A stretch of 64,000 nt of DNA, from positions 2,080,001-2,144,000 of the forward strand of contig OZ245033.1 in assembly GCA_965224025.1 (NCBI GenBank). Reading direction: 5' to 3'. The position numbers and the translations under genes were made by a program. This DNA comes from Candidatus Multivorans sp. (GTDB lineage Bacteria; Acidobacteriota; Thermoanaerobaculia; Multivoradales; Multivoraceae). The notes below the pieces were generated by a model, which did not search any database, was not told where the DNA came from, and was given only the letters and a program-made list of their open reading frames with translations. The first letter of the stretch is position 1. Every line of letters begins with the position of its first letter. Shown piece after piece: positions 26,611-50,590 of the stretch.

Positions 26611-28620
26611 CTACATCCGCTCGGGCAGGGGTACGCCGAGAATCGCGGCGAGCGCCTCAAGCGCTCGCACGAAGATCTGCGTGGCCGCGAGACGCGCGTC
26701 GCGGAGATCGGCCTCCCGCTCGTGCAGGATGGGATGGCGGTGGTAGATGGCGTGGAACTTCTGCGCCAGCTCGACCGCGTGCCTGGCGATCAGGGACAGC
26801 TCCAGCGTGGCGGCGGCGCGCTCGACGGTGTCCTGGCACTGCGAGGCGAGCAGCACCAGGTCCCAGAGGTCGTCGGGCCAGGCCTCGACAGGGAGGTCCG
26901 CGGCTCGTGCTTCGCCGACTGCCTGGGGCAGGCCCTCCTCCGCCAGACGCCGCCGGATGTTCCTGGCGCGCACGATGGAGTACTGCAGGTACGGTCCGGT
27001 CTCGCCCTCGAAGGCCGTGGCTTCATCGATGTCGAAGGCGATCACCCGCGTCGTCGTCGCCCGTGCCATGAAGAAGCGCAGCGCCGCCGTCGCGATCTGG
27101 CGGGCCAGGAGTCCGTCGTCCCGGTCGTCCGTGCCCGCGGTGTCGCCGTCGCCGCGACGGGCGGCGATTTCGGCCCGGCTCTTCGCCTCGAGCTGGTCGA
27201 GCAGGTCGTCCGCCTTGACGCCGATGCCCTTGCGGCCCGACATCTCCAGCACGGCGTCGCCGCTGAAGCCGAGCTGTTCGGCGGTCCGGGCGGACAGGGC
27301 GACCATCTCGTAGGCAAAGTGGATGCTCTCGGCGGCTTCGCGGGCGTGGCCGAGGGCTTCCAGACCGGCGCGGACGATCCGCTGCAGGTACGCCTGGCGG
27401 GCGTCGATCACGTTGATGACCCGGGCGGCCCTGCCGAACGCGGGCGCCTGCTCCGGGCCGCGCCCGGCGCTGGCCGGCGCGGTTTTCCACAGGGGGCCTT
27501 CGCGGCCGGTTCCATCCCCGCGAGTTCCATCCCCGAGAGTTCCATCCCGGCGACCCCTACGAGTTCCATCCCGGAAGAGCTCGTACTCGAAGTCGCGGCC
27601 GAGCAGACCGAACTTCCAGAGCTGATAGGCGATGTCCTTGCCGACGTAGGTCACGGTGCCGTCGGACCGCACGATCACCTTGTCCGGGTCCTCCAGCCCC
27701 TGGAACTCCTGGCTGTCCGAGAGCGGCATGACCCAGCAGCCGGCGTTCTTTCCGGTCTCCTCGAAGCGCACCGCGCCGCTTTGCTTGAGTTGCTTGAAGG
27801 CGGCGACGAAGAAGTCCAGGCGCAGGATCTCGCTTTCCCGCGTCAGGAGGTCGTAATCGATGTCGATGCGACCCATCGTGGCCAGGTGGCGCTTCACGAT
27901 CCGTCGCGCGACCAGGCGGCCGGCGTCCGCCCGCCGGCCCCGGCCCGATTCCAGGGCGTGGAGGGTGCGGCGCCGGAGCTCGAGCCGTTCGGGATTGGTC
28001 TCGAACCAGCGGCCGATCTCGCTGTAGACGTCCCAGCAGGTGTAGTCGAAGGGCTCGGGAAGGGCCTCGATGTCGGCCACGGAGCAGCCCTGGAGATCGA
28101 GGAAGCCGACCACGACATCGGCGACCTGAACTCCGGTATCGTCGATGTAGTTCTGGACTTCGGTGGTGCGCCCGAGGCCGCGGAGCGCTCGCGCCAGGAC
28201 ATCGCCGAGGACGGCGTTGCGCAGGTGGCCTATGTGCGCCGCCTTGTTCGGATTGATGTTCGTGTGCTCGACGATGACCTTGGCGGGCTGATCGGCAGCG
28301 GTGGATGGCGCCACCGGAACCGCGTCGAGCATCGCCGCGGCGAATCCGGTCCTGTCGAGGTGGAAGTTGACGTAGCCCGGGCCTTCGACGGTGATCCGGT
28401 CGAATCCCGGCGGCAGCTCCATTGCCTCGACAAGCCGCTCCGCGATCGCTCGCGGCGCCTGACGGAGTTTGCGCGCGAGGTGAAGGGCGCAGGGGCTCGC
28501 GAGGTCGCCCAGGCGCCGCTGGGGCGGCACTTCGACAGTGGGGTCGTGATCGAGCCCGAAGACGCGAAAGAGGGCGCTTCGCAGCGTGTCGGCGACCAGG
28601 GTTCTCTTGCGCTGCAGCAT
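26611..28620 (-). CDS. argS: Arginine--tRNA ligase
   Basis: EHTNINPNKAAHIGHLRN (HIGH), MSGRKG, FEGETGPYLQY, C-terminal LGVPLPERM; start at ATG 28620. Confidence 0.96.
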   Translation of the reverse strand: MLQRKRTLVADTLRSALFRVFGLDHDPTVEVPPQRRLGDLASPCALHLARKLRQAPRAIAERLVEAMELPPGFDRITVEGPGYVNFHLDRTGFAAAMLDAVPVAPSTAADQPAKVIVEHTNINPNKAAHIGHLRNAVLGDVLARALRGLGRTTEVQNYIDDTGVQVADVVVGFLDLQGCSVADIEALPEPFDYTCWDVYSEIGRWFETNPERLELRRRTLHALESGRGRRADAGRLVARRIVKRHLATMGRIDIDYDLLTRESEILRLDFFVAAFKQLKQSGAVRFEETGKNAGCWVMPLSDSQEFQGLEDPDKVIVRSDGTVTYVGKDIAYQLWKFGLLGRDFEYELFRDGTRRGRRDGTLGDGTRGDGTGREGPLWKTAPASAGRGPEQAPAFGRAARVINVIDARQAYLQRIVRAGLEALGHAREAAESIHFAYEMVALSARTAEQLGFSGDAVLEMSGRKGIGVKADDLLDQLEAKSRAEIAARRGDGDTAGTDDRDDGLLARQIATAALRFFMARATTTRVIAFDIDEATAFEGETGPYLQYSIVRARNIRRRLAEEGLPQAVGEARAADLPVEAWPDDLWDLVLLASQCQDTVERAAATLELSLIARHAVELAQKFHAIYHRHPILHEREADLRDARLAATQIFVRALEALAAILGVPLPERM
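27509..27574 (-). repeat. In-frame degenerate 15-bp tandem repeat inside argS
   Basis: GTTCCATCCC core at 27509, 27524, 27539 and 27563, encoding four DGT units. Confidence 0.85.
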
Positions 28621-28729
28621 CGGAATGCGCAGTCTAGGAGTGTCCGCAGCGTTGTCGCTGCGCTGTCGCGCAGGGAACAGGCAGCGAGTAGCCAACGTTA
28701 CAGCGGCGTCGTGGGTTCATAGAGTTGGC

Positions 28730-28885
28730 CGCGCTGGGCAGCGAGGCCGCGCAGGCACTGGTGTGTTGGCGCCCGACTAGGAGTTTGGCCCGGACCGTGA
28801 TCGGCGCTCTGACGCTGGCGGCGCGGCTTGTGTCGCGACCCCGTATGCAAGATTGAGCTTTTCGCCGCGGTCTCTGCCCAGCGCG
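28730..28885 (+). ncRNA. Candidate IS110 bridge RNA
   Basis: Long closing stem (28730-28751 pairs with 28866-28885); internal ATGCAAG (28845-28851) equals the last 7 nt of the element's right end. Confidence 0.55.
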
Positions 28886-28918
28886 ACGATTGGATTCTAC
28901 ATCTACGGGAGGCAGGGG

Positions 28919-30238
28919 ATGGCAAAGCGGAAGGCGGAGCGTCTGGAAGTCGTTCACCCGGATTGCGCCGGTGTGGACGTAGGCAAGCGCAAGCACTACG
29001 TGGCGGTGGCCCCGTCGCGTTTCGAGCGGCCGGTGCGCAATTTCTCGTCGTTCACGGAGGACCTCGAGGCGATGGCCTCGTGGCTTCAGGAGTGCGGCGT
29101 GCGTGAGGTGGCGCTGGAGTCGACGGGGGTGTACTGGATTCCGGTGTTCGAGGTGCTGGACCGGGCGGGGTTCGAGGTGCATCTGGTGAATCCTCGGGCG
29201 ACCAAGCAGGTGAGTGGCCGCAAGAGTGACGTTCTGGACTGCCAGTGGATCCGGCAGTTGATGAGCTACGGGCTCCTGCGCGGTGCGTTTCGCGCGCCGG
29301 ACGAGTTGTGTCCGCTGCGTTCGTACACGCGGCAGCGCGCCCAGTTGGTCCGCGACCGCAGCCGCGCGGTGCAGCACATCCAGAAGGCTCTGGTGCAGAT
29401 GAACGTGCAGTTGGACAACGTGCTGAGCGACATCATGGGCAAGACCGGCCAGTTGATCGTGCGCGCGATCGTCGCCGGCGAGCGCGACGGCGCGGCGCTG
29501 GCCCGTCACCGGGACGGTCGCTGCAAGGCTGGTCCGGCTGTGATCGCGGCGAGTTTGCAAGGCAACTGGCGAGACGAGCACCTGTTCGCTCTGGGCCAGG
29601 CGCTGGCCCGCTACGACATGCTGCAAGGCCAGATCGAGATGTGCGAGAAGCGCATCGACGCCGAGCTCGACGGCCTGGCCCAAGACGGCGTCGAGGACGC
29701 GCCGCCGCCCGGTTCGAAGGCGCGCGAGCGCGCCCTGCGGAAGCGGCTGCATCGCATGCTCGGCGTGGACCTGGTCGCCATTCCGACGGTCGGCGTCGAA
29801 ACCGCGCTGACCTTCGCCGCTGAGATCGGCCCGGACCTGTCCCGGTTTCCCTCGCAGGGCAACTTCTGCTCGTGGCTGTGTCTGGCTCCACCGACCAACA
29901 TCAGCGGCGACAAACGGCTGAACGGCCCTCCCGTGAAGCAGACCAACCGGGTCGGCCAGGCGCTGCGCCAAGCCGCCACCACAGCCCGCAACAGCAAGAC
30001 CGCCATCGGAGCCTCTCACCGCCGGCGTCTCCAGCACATGGAGAAGGCGAAGGCCATCAAGGCCACCGCTCATCAACTCGGCCGACTGATCTACGCCATG
30101 CTGACCCACGGCGAAGAGTACGTCGAGCGCGACCTCGCCGAAATGGAGGCCGTCCGACGCGAACGACAAATCAGAAACCTGCAGCGTCAGGCCCGCCGCC
30201 TGAATCTGGCTCTCGTGCCGACCGAACATGCCGCCTGA
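28919..30238 (+). CDS. IS110-family DEDD recombinase/transposase
   Basis: GVDVGK, ALESTGVYW, KSDVLDC (DEDD); C-terminal Tnp domain IPTVG..EIGPDLSRF..SWLCLAP..ISG. Confidence 0.96.
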   Translation: MAKRKAERLEVVHPDCAGVDVGKRKHYVAVAPSRFERPVRNFSSFTEDLEAMASWLQECGVREVALESTGVYWIPVFEVLDRAGFEVHLVNPRATKQVSGRKSDVLDCQWIRQLMSYGLLRGAFRAPDELCPLRSYTRQRAQLVRDRSRAVQHIQKALVQMNVQLDNVLSDIMGKTGQLIVRAIVAGERDGAALARHRDGRCKAGPAVIAASLQGNWRDEHLFALGQALARYDMLQGQIEMCEKRIDAELDGLAQDGVEDAPPPGSKARERALRKRLHRMLGVDLVAIPTVGVETALTFAAEIGPDLSRFPSQGNFCSWLCLAPPTNISGDKRLNGPPVKQTNRVGQALRQAATTARNSKTAIGASHRRRLQHMEKAKAIKATAHQLGRLIYAMLTHGEEYVERDLAEMEAVRRERQIRNLQRQARRLNLALVPTEHAA

Positions 30239-30516
30239 ATCGCGCAACCTGCGCTGCCAACAAGGAACCCCTACCCGTTTGTTCCATGCAAGCTTGCGCC
30301 GCAGGAACGCAACGAAGTGATTCCTGAGGCGCAAGATCCTGGTGAGGACGGGATGGGGCGAAATCCCCAGCCTGCGAGGCGTTTCGGGGCGGTACCCAAG
30401 CGGGGCTTGAGCTCCGGTAGCATGTTCGCCGATTCAGGGAGCGCCGTGAACGAGAACCGCCATAGCCCCGTCCGTCCGGCCCGACTCCCGCCGGAACTCA
30501 GTACCGGGTTGGCGCC

Positions 30517-32418
30517 ATGACGAGTCGCGAGCGGCCGCTGCCGCCGACCGCGCCGGAGTCGCTGATGGCTCGCCGCGTACTAGTGCTGGCGCCCCACTAC
30601 GACGACGAAGTGCTGGGCTGCGGCGGCCTTATCCTGCAGCTGGCCGCGGGCGGCGCAAAGGTCGTGTGTGCCTTCATGAGCGACGGTTCGGGCGGCGTGG
30701 AAGGACCGACGGAGGGGTCGACGAGAGAGCAGTACTCGAAGCGGCGAAGGGGGGAAGCAGATGAGGCCGCCAAAGTACTCGGCATCGACAGCGTGGGGCA
30801 TCTGGGCTCGCGCCACGGTTTGATAGATGGCGCCCTGACCTCCTCCCTGGACCAACTGACCAGCCACATTGAGGCGTTGCTCCAGGAACACGAGCCGGAT
30901 CTGCTGCTGGCGCCCTCGCCTCTCGAAGTGACCCCCGATCATCAGGCGACGTTTCGCGCGCTGCACGAGGTTCTGATCAACCGCCGGCAAGGACGAACGG
31001 AAGGGGGCGAACCTCTTTCCAGCCAGGACGACGACTCGTCGCCCGGCGATCTGGCGCTGCGTGTTCTCTGCTACGAGGTGAACCACCCCTTCTACCCCGA
31101 CCTGCTCGTGGACGTGACGGCCGAGGTGGAGGGAGTCGCCGACGCGATGTCCCACTATCGAAGCCAATTGGAACGCCACGACTATCTCGCCGCGTGTCAA
31201 GGTCTCCGCCGCTTCAGGGCGCTCAGCCTGCCGGACCCATGCCGTTTCGCGGAGGGTTACTGCCAGTTGACTGCCAGCGACTTCACCACCCGAAGTCCGG
31301 CCCAACTGATCGCCTACCTGGGCGGGGCGCCTGCCCTGGTCGAAGTCACGTCGCCGCGCCGGGTGTCGATGGTGGTCCGAACCTACAACCGGCCGCGCCG
31401 ATTGGCGGAAGCACTGGACAGTCTGGCGCAGAGCACCTACCGCAACGTCGAGGTGGTTTTGGTGAACGACGGCGGCCGGCGCCCCGAAGTGGCGGAGGAC
31501 TTCCCCTTCGCGCTGCGTCGTGTCGACTTTGCGGCCAATCGAGGTCGTGCGGCCGCGGCCCAGGCGGGTGTCGAGGCGGCGACGGGCGATTGCGTCGGTT
31601 TCCTGGACGACGATGACCTGCTGACGCCGGAACACTTGGAGAGTCTGACCGCGATGCTCAGCGGGGATGTCGACGTCGCCTACAGCGATGCGGCCGTAGT
31701 CTGCTACGAACCGAGTGCGAGCGGTTGGAGGGAGAGCAGTCGCCGCCTTCCCTACAGCCGGGACTTCGATCGGGACATCCTTCTACTCGACAACTACATT
31801 CCGTTCCATACCGTTCTGATGACCCGGGAGGCACTGAAGCGGGCGGGATCGTTCGATCTTCAGCTACCGATCTTCGAGGACTGGGACCTGCTGATCCGCT
31901 TGTCGCGCTCATCGAGCTTCGTCCACCTCGCCCGCACGACATGCGAGTACCGTCACTTCCTGGACGGTGCGGCGGCCGGCGCCTCTGGAGGTCATGCACT
32001 TGGCGGAGCGGCTTCCGCGCGCCCCGATTTTGAAACACTGAAGGCGAAGGTTCTGAACAAACATGCGGCCGACCTCGACGCGGACGCACTGGCGGGTGCA
32101 GTAACTCGGATGCGGCGTCAGGCCGTGCTGGCTGGCGAGGCGTCCCGCGCGCAGATTCTCACACGTCAGCAGGACCTGGAGCGGTTGCAGGCCCGTGAAC
32201 AGGAACTGGAGTCGTCGCATCGGGAACGCGGCGCCGAGATCGTGCGGTTGCAGGTCCGTGAGCGGGAACTGGAGTCGTCGCATCGGCAGTGCGAAGTCGA
32301 AGTCCTGAGGCTCTACGACCGTGAACAGGAGCTGCAGGCCGATGTCGAAGCCATGAAGGCGACCCGGGCCTGGCGGCTGCACGAGCGTCTCCAGAGATTC
32401 CGTGGTTCCGGTGACTGA
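30517..32418 (+). CDS. PIG-L/LmbE deacetylase + GT2 glycosyltransferase + C-terminal coiled coil fusion
   Basis: APHYDDE and PDH (PIG-L); VRTYNR, VNDGG, FLDDDD, EDWD (GT2); heptad-rich tail ending TRAWRL. Confidence 0.88.
   Translation: MTSRERPLPPTAPESLMARRVLVLAPHYDDEVLGCGGLILQLAAGGAKVVCAFMSDGSGGVEGPTEGSTREQYSKRRRGEADEAAKVLGIDSVGHLGSRHGLIDGALTSSLDQLTSHIEALLQEHEPDLLLAPSPLEVTPDHQATFRALHEVLINRRQGRTEGGEPLSSQDDDSSPGDLALRVLCYEVNHPFYPDLLVDVTAEVEGVADAMSHYRSQLERHDYLAACQGLRRFRALSLPDPCRFAEGYCQLTASDFTTRSPAQLIAYLGGAPALVEVTSPRRVSMVVRTYNRPRRLAEALDSLAQSTYRNVEVVLVNDGGRRPEVAEDFPFALRRVDFAANRGRAAAAQAGVEAATGDCVGFLDDDDLLTPEHLESLTAMLSGDVDVAYSDAAVVCYEPSASGWRESSRRLPYSRDFDRDILLLDNYIPFHTVLMTREALKRAGSFDLQLPIFEDWDLLIRLSRSSSFVHLARTTCEYRHFLDGAAAGASGGHALGGAASARPDFETLKAKVLNKHAADLDADALAGAVTRMRRQAVLAGEASRAQILTRQQDLERLQAREQELESSHRERGAEIVRLQVRERELESSHRQCEVEVLRLYDREQELQADVEAMKATRAWRLHERLQRFRGSGD
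32181..32337 (+). repeat. 63-bp (21-aa) tandem repeat, about 2.5 copies
   Basis: GCGGTTGCAGG..GAACTGGAGTCGTCGCATCGG at 32181 and 32244; third copy degenerate (RLYDREQEL). Confidence 0.85.
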
Positions 32419-49189: not shown

Positions 49190-50590
49190 CTTGCATGGAA
49201 CAAAGTAGCGAAGCGGCGTTGGTTCAAGAGGATGCAGGGGTTTTCATGCGGCTTGTTCAGCGGCGACGAGCTTCAGGTTGAGGCGTCTGGCCTGACGCTG
49301 CAGGTTCCTGATCTGTCGTTCGCGTCGGACGGCCTCCATCTCGGCGAGGTCGCGTTCGACGTACTCTTCGCCGTGGGTGATCATGGCGAAGATCGTGCGG
49401 GCCAGCTTGTGGGCGATGGCCTTGACGGCCTTGGCGGTGTCCATGCGGTGCATTCGGCGTCGGTGCGCTGCGCCGATCGCGGTCTTGCTGTTGCGGGCGG
49501 TGGTTGCGGCCATTCGCAGCGCCTGGCCGACGCGGTTGACGTGTTGTCTGGGCTTGCCCTTGAGGCGTTTGTCGCCGCTGATGTTGGTCGGCGGGGCCAG
49601 ACACAGCCATGAGCAGAAGTTGCCCTGCGAGGGAAACCGGGACAGGTCCGGGCCGATCTCGGCGGCGAACGTCAGCGCGGTTTCGACGCCAATCGTCGGG
49701 ATGGCGACCAGGTCGACTCCGAGCATGCGGTGCAGCCGCTCGCGCAGGGCGTGCTCGCGGCGCTTCGAGTCCGGCGGCGAAGCCTCGCCGTCGCCGTCGT
49801 CAGCCAGCTCGTCGAGTTCGGCGTCGATGCGCTCCTCGCAGTTCTCGATCTGGCCCTGCAGCATGTCGTGGCGCGCCAGCGCCTGCCTGAGGGCGAACAG
49901 ATGCTCGTCGCGCCAATTGCCCTCGAGACTCGCTGCGATCACAGCCGCGCTCGCCTTGCACCGGCCGTCGCGGTGGCGGGCCAGCGCCTCGCCGTCCCGC
50001 TCGCCGGCCCCGATCGCGCGCACGATCAGTTGGCCGGTCTTGCCCATGATGTCGCTGAGCACGTTGTCCAACTGCACGTTCATCTGCACGAGCGCCTTCT
50101 GAACGTGCTGCACCGAACGGCTGCGGTCGCGGATCAACTGCCCGCGCTGACGCGTATAGGAACGCAGCGGGCACAGCGCGTCCGGCGCACGAAACGCGCT
50201 GCGCAGCAACCCGTAGCTCATCAACTGCCGGATCCACTGACAGTCCAGCACGTCGCTCTTGCGACCGCTCACCTGCTTCGTCGCCTTCGGATTCACCAGG
50301 TAGACCTCGAAACCCGCTCGGTCGAGCACCTCGAACACCGGGATCCAGTACACGCCCGTGGACTCCAACGCCACCTGACGCACGCCGCGCGTCTCAAGCC
50401 ACGACGCCGTCGCCTCGAGATCGCGTGTGAACGACCCGAAGCTGTGCACCGGGCGCTCGAAACGCGACGGGTCCACCGCCACGTAGTGCTTGCGCTTGCC
50501 CACGTCGATCCCCGCACAATCCGGGTGAACGACTTCCAGACTCTCCGCCTTCCTGCTCGCCATCTCCAGCACCTCCTGTACGATTCAAAT
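49190..50590 (-). mobile_element. IS110-family element, copy 2, left end truncated by IS1595
   Basis: Same 15-bp right-end motif (49190-49204); only 27 bp between ATG and the IS1595 TIR. Confidence 0.85.
49244..50563 (-). CDS. IS110-family DEDD recombinase/transposase
   Basis: GIDVGK, ALESTGVYW, KSDVLDC, NISGDK; AGGAGG RBS; close but non-identical paralogue of 28919-30238. Confidence 0.96.
   Translation of the reverse strand: MASRKAESLEVVHPDCAGIDVGKRKHYVAVDPSRFERPVHSFGSFTRDLEATASWLETRGVRQVALESTGVYWIPVFEVLDRAGFEVYLVNPKATKQVSGRKSDVLDCQWIRQLMSYGLLRSAFRAPDALCPLRSYTRQRGQLIRDRSRSVQHVQKALVQMNVQLDNVLSDIMGKTGQLIVRAIGAGERDGEALARHRDGRCKASAAVIAASLEGNWRDEHLFALRQALARHDMLQGQIENCEERIDAELDELADDGDGEASPPDSKRREHALRERLHRMLGVDLVAIPTIGVETALTFAAEIGPDLSRFPSQGNFCSWLCLAPPTNISGDKRLKGKPRQHVNRVGQALRMAATTARNSKTAIGAAHRRRMHRMDTAKAVKAIAHKLARTIFAMITHGEEYVERDLAEMEAVRRERQIRNLQRQARRLNLKLVAAEQAA

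What the first reader, a model, noticed from the sequence alone, without database searches (positions are those of the whole stretch)
28720..30292. IS110 recombinase with a structured upstream RNA carrying a copy of its own end: RNA-guided (bridge-type) recombination candidate
Seen: about 200 nt of non-coding DNA precedes the intact DEDD recombinase. It is closed by a long stem, CGCGCTGGGCAGCGAGGCCGCG (28730-28751) pairing with CGCGGTCTCTGCCCAGCGCG (28866-28885). Inside it, ATGCAAG (28845-28851) equals the last 7 nt of the right end (30286-30292), which is delimited independently by comparison with copy 2. GCGCAGGC (28749-28756) is a 7/8 match to the reverse complement of 30292-30299, the terminal G plus the right flank. 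Known: IS110 elements such as IS621 encode a bridge RNA in the non-coding end whose loops pair with donor and target DNA. Inference: this is a bridge RNA with a donor guide at 28845. One long stem enclosing everything, and a 439-aa recombinase, may define a subtype different from IS621. A 7-nt match alone could be chance.
Basis: partly seen in the sequence, partly recalled or inferred. Interest (0 to 1): 0.82.

Follow-up and report, generated by a model that had tools for sequence, protein, structure and literature searches.

The report
IS110 element with bridge RNA
This is an active insertion sequence of the IS110 family that carries, in front of its recombinase gene, a folded guide ("bridge") RNA whose loops spell out its insertion site and its own right end; the kind is known since 2024, but here the guides sit in the opposite order to the textbook example.

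Summary
The element is 28641-30292, flanked by an AG core on each side. Its left non-coding end is about 280 nt, not 200. The genome holds 14 near-identical copies.

A 165-nt structured RNA (28726-28890) is conserved upstream of the recombinase in homologues with 45-86% protein identity. Of 42 pairs, 26 show compensatory change, and 0 of 500 shuffles reach that.

Three loop segments behave as guides:
- ATGCAAG (28845-51) equals the last 7 nt of the right end in 45 of 48 loci, through 8 different 7-mers.
- CTAGGAG (28777-83) equals the left target plus core in 44 of 54 loci, through 14 different 7-mers.
- GCCGCGCAGG (28746-55) is complementary to the right flank, at 7-10 of 10 positions in 12 of the 14 own copies.

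No guide for the left-end donor was found, and no RNA data exist.

The guide order, top-strand complement first, is the one reported for IS1111 elements. The RNA lies upstream, as in IS110-type elements. On the opposite strand everything reads like IS621, with a CT core.

Verdict: a genuine bridge RNA system and a variant of a known kind, of moderate interest.

The parts
28634..28640 (+). Left half of the target plus core (CTAGG + AG). This is host DNA, not part of the element.
   Evidence: It is identical in all 14 copies. The same 7-mer also directly abuts the right-flank motif in insertion-free copies of a about 110-nt genomic repeat: 7 of 32 read CTAGGAG and 8 of 32 read CCAGGAG. A relative's contig without the IS keeps it (X6).
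28641..30292 (+). Insertion sequence of 1652 bp, counting the right AG core copy at 30291-92.
   Evidence: There are 14 copies at 98.6-100% identity in the genome, with common ends.
28641..28690 (+). Left terminal region (right donor, RD). It contains the hairpin GCAGCG/CGCTGC (28646-51/28656-61) and the subterminal repeat arm GGGAACA (28673-79).
   Evidence: It is conserved in homologues and in about 60-105-nt miniature elements. GGAACA is the inverse of TGTTCC at 30280-85.
28718..28723 (+). Possible -10 box (CATAGA; TATAAA in homologues), 7-12 nt before the first helix.
   Evidence: Seen by eye in the alignment. The consensus promoter scan found nothing, so this is inferred only.
28726..28890 (+). 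Predicted bridge RNA gene.
   Evidence: Covariance model R1 scores 155.7 bits here. 42 pairs are 90% paired, 26 with compensatory change.
28730..28741 (+). Closing helix P1, 5' strand. It pairs with 28874-28885.
   Evidence: 8 of the 10 pairs of the main helix show changes on both sides (helix 1).
28746..28755 (+). [quoted passage not shown]
   Evidence: Watson-Crick matches out of 10 at the 14 own insertion sites are 10,9,9,9,9,8,8,8,8,7,7,7,5,3. Across families the mean is 4.27 of 7 against 3.65 shuffled, with 0 of 5000 shuffles as high.
28777..28783 (+). Left-target guide plus core (CTAGGAG), identical to the top strand of the left flank.
   Evidence: It is exact in 44 of 54 loci, and in 23 of 30 guide combinations against 3.4 in shuffles (0 of 10000). 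14 distinct 7-mers are matched. The column-by-column diagonal has identities of 0.94-1.00.
28784..28784 (+). Handshake-like position. The base after the left-target guide equals the first base of the element.
   Evidence: Identity is 0.88 over 32 sequences, with two letter types, T and C.
28845..28851 (+). Donor guide for the right end plus core (ATGCAAG).
   Evidence: It equals the last 7 nt of the element in 45 of 48 loci, and in 23 of 25 combinations against 6.3 in shuffles (0 of 10000). 8 distinct 7-mers are matched.
28874..28885 (+). Closing helix P1, 3' strand.
28919..30238 (+). Recombinase gene, 439 aa. Residues D20, E67, D104, D107 and S329 correspond to the IS621 catalytic residues.
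   Evidence: Pfam. NCBIfam NF033542 at 271 bits against a cut-off of 140. IS621 chain 8wt6_A at E 6e-9. The residues are kept in 17 of 18 homologues.
30286..30292 (+). Right terminus (left donor, LD) plus core, ATGCA + AG. It is preceded by the subterminal repeat arm TGTTCC (30280-85).
30293..30302 (+). Right half of the target (CTTGCGCCGC here; consensus NNTGCGCGGC).
30293..30400 (+). About 110-nt repeated hairpin element of the host genome, which provides the target.
   Evidence: 36 further places in the genome match it.

Best explanation
This is an active IS110-family insertion sequence that moves by RNA-guided (bridge-type) recombination.

**Proposed RNA.** An RNA of about 160 nt is transcribed from the left end, about 28728-28888, in the same sense as the recombinase gene. 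One long helix (P1) closes it and encloses two similar modules. Each module is a short stem, an internal loop and an inner hairpin whose base is an invariant U.G, G-C, G-C.

**First module, reading the target.**
[quoted passage not shown] - The next base then matches the first base of the element, like the handshake position of IS621.

**Reaction.** The DEDD/Ser recombinase exchanges strands at the AG dinucleotide shared by the circle junction (...CCATGCA-AG-TGTCCGC...) and the target (CTAGG-AG-NNTGCGC). The preferred target lies at the foot of a repeated hairpin element of the host.

**Shown here:**
- the element ends, the AG at both junctions and the target consensus;
- the conserved fold;
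- covariation of three guide segments with flanks and right end;
- conservation of the catalytic residues.

**Inferred:**
- that the region is transcribed and bound by the recombinase;
- the circular intermediate;
- the order of strand cleavage;
- how the left terminus (RD) is recognised.
For: **Mobility and ends.** The genome holds 14 copies at 98.6-100% identity with common ends. All 14 carry an identical RNA region: 14 R1 matches of 155.7 bits. Insertion-free copies of the host repeat read C[T/C]AGGAG directly followed by CTTGCGCC.

**Recombinase.** It matches Pfam DEDD_Tnp_IS110 and Transposase_20. It matches NCBIfam 'IS110 family RNA-guided transposase' at 271 bits. The IS621 structure chain matches at E 6e-9. 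D20, E67, D104, D107 and S329 are kept in 17 of 18 homologues.

**Fold (36 sequences).**
- 90% of cells are paired, against 36-44% when partners are slid.
- 26 of 42 pairs have changes on both sides, and 0 of 500 shuffles reach any measure.
- The U.G pairs at the base of both inner hairpins are kept in 35 of 36 and 36 of 36 sequences. This fits an RNA of the + strand only.

**Guides.**
- Left-target guide: exact in 44 of 54 loci, through 14 different 7-mers.
- Right-end guide: exact in 45 of 48 loci, through 8 different 7-mers.
- Neither count is reached in 0 of 10000 shuffles.
- Right-target guide.

**Reach of the family.** The same architecture and the same two exact matches occur in elements with about 50% protein identity on plasmids of Cupriavidus necator N-1 and Burkholderia vietnamiensis G4.

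**Published mechanism for the family.** PMC11208160 and PMC11208158 (passages read) and PMC11187229 (passages and section 12 read).
Against: - No transcript is shown. No RNA run is listed for this sequence.
- The consensus scan finds neither a promoter nor a terminator in 28560-28960.
- The single-sequence fold is not more stable than shuffles.
- No Rfam family matches.
- No guide for the left terminus (RD) was found. No RNA column pairs with RD positions 1-10 with more than two pair types. The segment in the expected place (28807-15) matches RD poorly in the main clade.
- The right-target match is weak or absent in many homologous loci. Across families the mean is only 4.27 of 7 against 3.65. 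This holds above all where the element sits next to another copy.
- Ten of 54 loci fail the left-target test and 3 of 48 fail the right-end test. Most failures are by one base, or occur in loci whose left end is broken.
- Related sequences share ancestry, so counts of loci are not independent events. The numbers of distinct 7-mers (14 and 8) are the fairer measure.
Confidence: 0.88

Rival explanations
1. The conserved left end acts as DNA, not RNA. On this reading, the internal copies of the flank and end sequences are subterminal binding sites or DNA hairpins read by the recombinase. They covary with the ends because the protein needs repeated sites.
For: There is no transcript evidence and no promoter in the scan. 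IS1111-type elements and this one have subterminal inverted repeats (PMC11187229 passages). The left terminus carries a conserved DNA hairpin, which is also kept in miniature elements. No RNA guide for that terminus was found.
Against: - The left 7-mer is host DNA, so the internal copy follows the target, not an element end.
- One guide is a complement and the other an identity, on opposite strands and overlapping at the core. This is the published RNA pairing scheme.
- Invariant U.G pairs are strand-specific.
- The protein family is experimentally RNA-guided (PMC11208160, PMC11187229).
Confidence: 0.06
2. The structure is only a leader of the recombinase mRNA that controls translation or stability. 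On this reading the matches to flank and end are chance, or leftovers of nested insertions.
For: The helix P1 ends 33 nt before the ATG with no terminator between, so the RNA is probably co-transcribed with the gene. The 7-mer alone is not rare in the window. Nested insertions into this region do occur.
Against: The flank matches 14 different 7-mers and the end matches 8, all at fixed alignment columns. A leader function does not explain complementarity to the right flank at 12 of 14 own sites.
Confidence: 0.03
3. The element is a bridge-RNA system, but the copy in the window is inert. The 14 copies would then reflect past bursts or duplication, not present activity.
For: There is no direct evidence of movement. 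The diverged copy 2 in the window has lost its left end.
Against: The 14 copies are 98.6-100% identical, with intact ORFs and identical RNA regions, at 14 different sites. Relatives lack the element at this locus.
Confidence: 0.1

Closest known systems
IS621 of Escherichia coli with its bridge RNA (Durrant et al. 2024, PMC11208160; Hiraizumi et al. 2024, PMC11208158)
   Same: - DEDD/Ser recombinase, with a distant sequence match (E 6e-9) and catalytic residues kept.
- The RNA is encoded in the left end, upstream of the gene.
- There are two similar modules, each a stem, an internal loop and an inner hairpin.
- One guide is identical to the top strand and one is complementary to it, meeting at a 2-nt core.
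- A handshake-like base follows the core.
- Read on the opposite strand, the core is CT as in IS621, and the guide order is also as in IS621.
   Different: - Relative to the gene, the guides are in the opposite order, with the top-strand complement on the 5' side. The core is AG in the gene's sense.
- A 12-bp helix closes the whole RNA.
- The donor module has a long 19-nt 3' side, and no clear guide for the terminus next to the RNA gene.
- The recombinase has 439 aa rather than 326, with a longer middle part.
- A 6-7-bp subterminal inverted repeat is present.
ISEc21 (IS110 type) and its seekRNA (Siddiquee et al. 2024, PMC11187229)
   Same: The non-coding region lies upstream. Short matches to both strands of the target lie in a small structured RNA.
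   Different: In ISEc21 the top-strand match lies 3' of the bottom-strand match (section 12 read). Here it lies 5'.
IS1111-family elements ISEc11, ISPa11, ISKpn4 and their seekRNAs (PMC11187229)
   Same: The guide order is the same: the top-strand complement lies 5' of the bottom-strand match. Subterminal inverted repeats are present. Durrant et al. describe donor-binding bases in a more complex loop for many IS1111 members.
   Different: - Their RNA lies downstream of the gene.
- Their repeats are 11-13 bp, with 7- and 3-bp extensions.
- Their transposases are about 340 aa.
- Here the RNA is upstream, the repeat is 6-7 bp (10 of 14 in an extended comparison) and the protein has 439 aa.
- None of the 75 plasmid rows listed (of 504 records that matched) bears an IS4321 or IS5075 name.
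ISMtsp17, cited as an IS1111 relative with an upstream non-coding region (PMC11187229, passage read)
   Same: It is a published exception to the rule that ties the place of the RNA to the family.
   Different: I have only the one sentence and could not compare sequences.
ISPpu10 of Pseudomonas putida (preprint 10.64898/2026.03.19.712850, abstract and section 6 read)
   Same: It inserts into a repeated extragenic hairpin element of the host. It acts in trans on LE-cargo-RE substrates, which fits the miniature elements seen here.
   Different: The authors mapped ISPpu10 with the IS621 pairing logic and a CT core.

Membership tests
IS110-family RNA-guided (bridge/seek RNA) recombination systems, broad sense | Recombinase with an N-terminal DEDD RuvC-like domain and a C-terminal domain with catalytic serine | tested here: met
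   Pfam PF01548 and PF02371. NF033542 at 271 bits against a cut-off of 140. Alignment to IS621 chain 8wt6_A. D20, E67, D104, D107 and S329 are kept in 17 of 18 homologues.
IS110-family RNA-guided (bridge/seek RNA) recombination systems, broad sense | Conserved structured non-coding RNA encoded in the long non-coding end | tested here: met
   The conserved fold has compensatory changes in 26 of 42 pairs, reached by 0 of 500 shuffles. The model also finds it in homologues with about 50% protein identity. The transcript itself could not be tested, as no RNA run is listed.
IS110-family RNA-guided (bridge/seek RNA) recombination systems, broad sense | Target loop with two guides that pair with opposite strands of the two target flanks | tested here: met
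   Left guide: 44 of 54 loci, 14 distinct 7-mers. Right guide: 7-10 of 10 at 12 of 14 own sites, with a weak but non-random signal across families.
IS110-family RNA-guided (bridge/seek RNA) recombination systems, broad sense | Donor loop with guides for both element termini | tested here: inconclusive
   The right-terminus guide is met: 45 of 48 loci, 8 distinct 7-mers. No guide for the left terminus was found. There are only hints in single lineages, read by eye from the alignment.
IS110-family RNA-guided (bridge/seek RNA) recombination systems, broad sense | The same core dinucleotide at both junctions and in both guides | tested here: met
   AG precedes the left end and ends the right end in all 14 copies. 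Both L-type guides end in AG in the 31 rows of the alignment that are alignable there. The exception is L051, whose left end is not homologous.
IS110-family RNA-guided (bridge/seek RNA) recombination systems, broad sense | Circular intermediate with abutted ends | not testable with these tools
   Only assembled contigs were available, and no back-joint was listed.
IS110 type as characterised (IS621, ISEc21, ISPpu10) | Non-coding region with the RNA upstream of the recombinase gene | tested here: met
   The RNA lies at 28726-28890 and the gene at 28919-30238.
IS110 type as characterised (IS621, ISEc21, ISPpu10) | [quoted passage not shown] | tested here: not met
   The top-strand complement (28746-55) lies 5' of the bottom-strand-pairing guide (28777-83). 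The core is AG in the gene's sense. The literature statements are in PMC11208160, PMC11208158 and PMC11187229.
IS1111 group | RNA downstream of the gene (long right end) | tested here: not met
   The right end is 54 nt after the stop codon (30239-30292). The left end is 278 nt.
IS1111 group | Top-strand complement 5' of the bottom-strand match in the RNA | tested here: met
   The rule is stated in PMC11187229 (passages read).
IS1111 group | Subterminal inverted repeats of 11-13 bp with 7- and 3-bp terminal extensions; transposase about 340 aa | tested here: not met
   GGGAACA (28673-79) faces TGTTCC (30280-85), at 10 of 14 when extended. The arms lie 32 nt from the left terminus and 7 nt from the right terminus. 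The protein has 439 aa.

The most novel reading that the evidence does not exclude
This clade may be a third arrangement of bridge-RNA elements. It runs from environmental Gammaproteobacteria to Burkholderiales plasmids and is related by protein to the IS110/IS116/IS902 type, not to IS1111.

- The RNA lies upstream, as in IS621.
- The recombination site is turned round relative to the gene. The core is AG in the gene's sense, and the guide order is that of IS1111.
- One helix closes both modules.
- The donor loop reads only the distal (right) terminus by contiguous pairing.
- The terminus next to the RNA gene would be recognised in another way, for example through its conserved DNA hairpin and subterminal repeat.

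If so, the place of the RNA and the order of the guides are independent characters. Donor recognition in part of the family would then be half RNA-guided.
Probability: 0.3. Interest if true: 0.55.

Novelty: new variant of a known kind. Interest (0 to 1): 0.4.

Why it matters
Bridge recombinases are being developed as programmable tools for inserting, inverting and excising DNA. Almost all mechanistic knowledge comes from IS621 and a few relatives.

This family offers a natural reprogramming series: 14 left-target guides and 8 donor guides, each with its matching DNA, plus a differently arranged RNA. Such a series helps to define which features are essential and which are free to vary.

It also shows consequences for the host genome. 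The element seeks the foot of a repeated hairpin element, and 19 free sites remain. It also lands in the guide-coding DNA of other copies, because that DNA mimics half of the target. Some variants have guides equal to the element's own right end and build tandem or nested arrays.

For annotation, the case is otherwise ordinary. NCBI already names the protein family 'RNA-guided transposase'.

Tried and rejected
- **Rfam.** The scan of 28000-31000 at E up to 10 gave only three sub-threshold chance matches and no bridge RNA family.
- **Single-sequence fold.** It is not better than shuffles. A claim of structure from this one sequence is therefore rejected.
- **Promoter and terminator scan.** Nothing was found. 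The -10-like box is only read from the alignment.
Rejected. The 5' bases are a variable guide while the 3' bases stay constant.
- **CTAGGAG at 28634-40 as part of the element.** I first took it so. Rejected after seeing insertion-free repeats and a relative's empty site.
- **Core CT at the left end (CTAGG...).** Rejected. Only 3 of 14 right junctions have CT after the end.
- **Guide for the left terminus.** I scanned all RNA columns against RD positions 1-10 for complement and identity, and inspected by eye the segment before CGCUGG and the segment after the donor guide. No convincing diagonal appeared.
- **RNA expression.** No RNA holder is listed.
- **Laying contigs of four runs.** No circle junction and no precise empty site of the same strain were found. 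Relatives lack both the IS and the repeat at this locus.
- **Papers that added nothing on guide order or clades.** 10.1101/2024.06.21.599552 and 10.64898/2026.08.14.744561 (passages only).
- **Literature search.** No paper holds 'bridge RNA' together with IS900, IS116, IS902 or IS1110.
- **Not used.** I did not run structure prediction, complex prediction or the large protein searches. The family assignment was already clear.
Full report
**1. What is in the sequence**

The recombinase ORF runs from 28919 to 30238 and encodes 439 aa. The evidence on the protein:
- It carries Pfam DEDD_Tnp_IS110 and Transposase_20.
- It scores 271 bits against NCBIfam NF033542, 'IS110 family RNA-guided transposase', whose cut-off is 140.
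- It matches the solved IS621 recombinase distantly (8wt6_A, E 6e-9).
- The residues that align with the IS621 catalytic D11, E60, D102, D105 and S241 are D20, E67, D104, D107 and S329. They are kept in 17 of 18 distinct homologues.

- The fold of 28700-28925 has z = +0.73 against shuffles.
- ATGCAAG occurs 4 times in the window against 3.0 expected.
- Rfam has no matching family.

**2. Ends, core and target**

The window's genome holds 14 copies of the element at 98.6-100% identity. It also holds a diverged copy (85%) that lies in the window at 49243-50570 on the minus strand.

The 14 copies share everything from CTAGGAG (28634) to ...CCATGCAAG (30292). To the left of this block nothing is conserved. 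To the right the flanks read NNTGCGCGGCAG.

The genome also contains a repeated hairpin element of about 110 nt, which matches 36 further places. Its insertion-free copies start with C[T/C]AGGAG directly followed by CTTGCGCC. Of 32 copies that reach their 5' end, 7 read CTAGGAG and 8 read CCAGGAG.

A contig of a relative that lacks the element at this locus keeps CTAGGAG there (X6). So CTAGGAG is the left half of the target, and the element proper is 28641-30292. AG stands at both junctions:

CTAGG-AG-[TGTCC...CCATGCA-AG]-NNTGCGC

This is the signature of a 2-nt core. The left non-coding end is therefore 278 nt, not about 200.

**3. Homologues**

A scan of one genome per species returned 59 loci with 45-86% protein identity. 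Nearly all are from gammaproteobacterial metagenome-assembled genomes.

The 340 nt upstream of the gene align well in most of them. I aligned 36 distinct sequences of the region that corresponds to 28726-28890 (A1). Three loci were left out before this step:
- L051, whose left end is not homologous;
- L054, which carries an insertion;
- L022, which carries a deletion.

**4. The fold**

I wrote a structure of 42 pairs in seven helices. It took the inner helices from RNAalifold and the outer ones from the sequence.

| Helix | Window coordinates |
|---|---|
| P1 | 28730-41 with 28874-85 |
| P2 | 28745-48 with 28787-90 |
| Target inner hairpin | 28759-65 with 28770-75 |
| P3a | 28793-97 with 28868-72 |
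| P3b | 28803-06 with 28863-66 |
| Donor inner hairpin | 28816-27 with 28832-43 |

Results on A1:
- 90% of cells form standard pairs, against 36-44% when the 3' partners are slid by 1-3 columns.
- 26 pairs have changes on both sides.
- None of 500 shuffles reaches any of the five measures.

A caveat applies: I derived part of the structure from these same sequences, which favours it over the slid controls.

Both inner hairpins start with the same U.G, G-C, G-C. The U.G is kept in 35 of 36 and 36 of 36 sequences. On the other strand these would be A.C, so the functional strand is the + strand.

A covariance model built from this alignment (R1) gave these matches:
- 14 identical copies in the genome, one orphan (C1:909106-909271) and one broken copy (C1:4134169-4134337);
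- the region just upstream of homologues with about 50% protein identity, on plasmids of Cupriavidus necator N-1 (58.5 bits) and Burkholderia vietnamiensis G4 (54.7 bits).

**5. The guides**

Left-target guide. The 7 nt at 28777-83 (CTAGGAG) lie on the 3' side of the first internal loop.
- In each homologue I compared the same alignment columns with the 7 nt left of the element's start. They are identical in 44 of 54 loci.
- The ten failures are L011, L016, L034, L042 and L045, which differ by one base, and L037, L040, L047, L054 and L059, which have broken or unalignable left ends.
- Taking one locus per distinct guide combination, 23 of 30 match, against 3.4 in shuffles (0 of 10000).
- 14 different 7-mers are matched.
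- A blind scan of all RNA columns against the flank gave one clean diagonal, with identities of 0.94-1.00 and 3-4 letter types (32 of the 36 rows; L037, L040, L047 and L059 left out).

Right-end donor guide.
- It equals the last 7 nt of the element in 45 of 48 loci.
- Of the three failures, L031 and L044 differ by one base. L050 matches at a second, nested end, which I read by eye.
- 23 of 25 combinations match against 6.3 in shuffles (0 of 10000), through 8 different 7-mers.

Right-target guide. The 7 variable nt at 28749-55 lie on the 5' side of the first loop and are complementary to the right flank.
- With the neighbouring bases (28746-55), the 14 own sites give 10, 9, 9, 9, 9, 8, 8, 8, 8, 7, 7, 7, 5 and 3 Watson-Crick pairs out of 10.
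- Across families the signal is weak: mean 4.27 of 7 against 3.65, with 0 of 5000 shuffles as high.
- There are clear single cases. L019 has CGTGC against L017's CCTGC, and the L006 family has CCCGCG.
- There are many misses where the element lies beside another copy.

Handshake-like base. The base after the left-target guide equals the first base of the element in 88% of 32 sequences, as T or C. This corresponds to the handshake position described for IS621 (PMC11208158, passages read).

Both plasmid elements from cultured Betaproteobacteria also show exact matches: left guide to flank (TTTGGAG; TTGAGAG) and donor guide to right end (TCAGGAG).

**6. What was not found**

No segment pairs with the left terminus (RD).
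- The scan gave only trivial two-type columns.
- The segment in the place expected by analogy (28807-15) does not match in the main clade.
- A few lineages (L035, L026, L029) show partial matches, read by eye from the alignment.

The left terminus carries a conserved DNA hairpin (28646-61) and one arm of a short subterminal inverted repeat (GGGAACA 28673-79 against TGTTCC 30280-85). How it is recognised is open.

There is no RNA evidence. No RNA run is listed, which says nothing either way. No consensus promoter or terminator was found. A -10-like box (TATAAA in several homologues, CATAGA here at 28718-23) stands 7-12 nt before P1 (read by eye).

**7. Comparison with what is known**

[quoted passage not shown] The core is CT (PMC11208160 and PMC11208158, passages). 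ISPpu10 was mapped with the same logic (preprint 10.64898/2026.03.19.712850, section 6).

Siddiquee et al. report the same order for ISEc21 and the reverse order for IS1111-family seekRNAs, which lie downstream of the gene (PMC11187229, passages and section 12).

Here the RNA lies upstream, but the top-strand complement comes first and the core is AG in the gene's sense. Read on the other strand the system is IS621-like in every tested respect:
- the core is CT;
- the 5' guide is identical to the left target;
- the 3' guide is complementary to core plus right target;
- the handshake base follows.

So the ribonucleoprotein probably works as in IS621. What differs is the orientation of the recombination site relative to the gene.

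By protein the element is not close to the IS1111 elements common on enterobacterial plasmids.
- None of the 75 rows listed, out of 504 matching plasmid records, carries an IS4321 or IS5075 name.
- The weaker matches are actinobacterial and Bacillus IS110-type genes.
- I did not build a tree with ISfinder references.

The length of 439 aa is inside the published ranges of about 300-460 aa and 315-450 aa.

I found no description of this combination in the papers read, nor in the searches. Two limits apply:
- Durrant et al. state that they modelled hundreds of IS110 elements.

One exception to the place rule (ISMtsp17) is in print.

**8. Verdict**

It is a member of the known class of bridge/seek-RNA-guided IS110-family elements. 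It fits neither of the two described subtypes, so I rate it a new variant of a known kind.

Interest is moderate. A specialist would expect a bridge RNA here. The natural reprogramming series, the turned-round site, the closing helix and the missing guide for one terminus are useful but not surprising.

Noticed in passing
window 30293-30400 and 36 further places in the genome (e.g. C1:346641, 546706, 2027450): A repeated element of about 110 nt. It has a 5' hairpin (CTTGCGCC...GGCGCAAG) and a second conserved part in two versions (…GGGCCGAAAC…GTTTCGGGGC… and …GGGCCAAAC…GTTTGGCGGC…) whose differences look compensatory. It provides the insertion site. No Rfam match was found in the window copy.
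   Followed up: partly
window 49243-50570 (minus strand) and genome C1:909026-909275: The diverged copy 2 has lost its left end. Homology stops at ...CCATTTGAAT, where DNA ending in TATAATCCCC begins. An orphan left end with an intact bridge RNA of the same type stands 1.2 Mb away and stops at the same point, next to GGGGATTATA. This suggests that another element with these inverted ends inserted there and that a rearrangement then separated the halves.
   Followed up: partly
genome C1:908921-909025, 5044166-5044224, 690781, 721625, 1123853, 4541753; 13 places match the first 38-56 nt of the left end at 79-87%, most of them about 45-55 nt: Miniature elements of about 60-105 nt. They keep the left-terminal hairpin, the subterminal repeat and the right terminus (…GTTCCATGCAAG) but have no gene or RNA. 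They are inserted at the same kind of site, in either arm of the host hairpin. They are candidates for mobilisation in trans.
   Followed up: partly
L012 and L054 (loci); genome C1:4134217-4134337: Elements or miniature elements inserted exactly after the left-target guide inside the bridge RNA gene of another copy. The guide-coding DNA mimics the left half of the target, while the right half does not match. This looks like the half-match insertion described for IS621 in preprint 10.64898/2026.08.31.748434 (abstract read).
   Followed up: partly
L001, L002, L020, L023, L025, L026, L050, L053, L060: Relatives whose left-target guide equals a right-end sequence (ATGCAAG, ATGAAAG, ATGCGAG, ATGGAAG...). 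They sit directly behind the right end of another element or miniature element and form tandem or nested arrays. Their right-target guides mostly do not match the flank.
   Followed up: partly
genome, e.g. C1:297306-298502, 2855074-2856270: A second, different IS110-family element with about 14 copies (about 170-178 bits to NF033542). It has no match to the RNA model R1. In all, the genome has 34 matches to the family.
   Followed up: no
window 28618-28640: The element sits 20 nt upstream of the likely ATG (28620, minus strand) of the arginyl-tRNA synthetase-like ORF 26611-28695. The listed TTG start at 28695 lies inside the element. Relatives lack the insertion at this locus.
   Followed up: no
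window 32181-32306: Two tandem 63-nt units, 81% alike, inside the 3' part of the ORF 30517-32418. They encode a repeated coiled-coil-like stretch.
   Followed up: no
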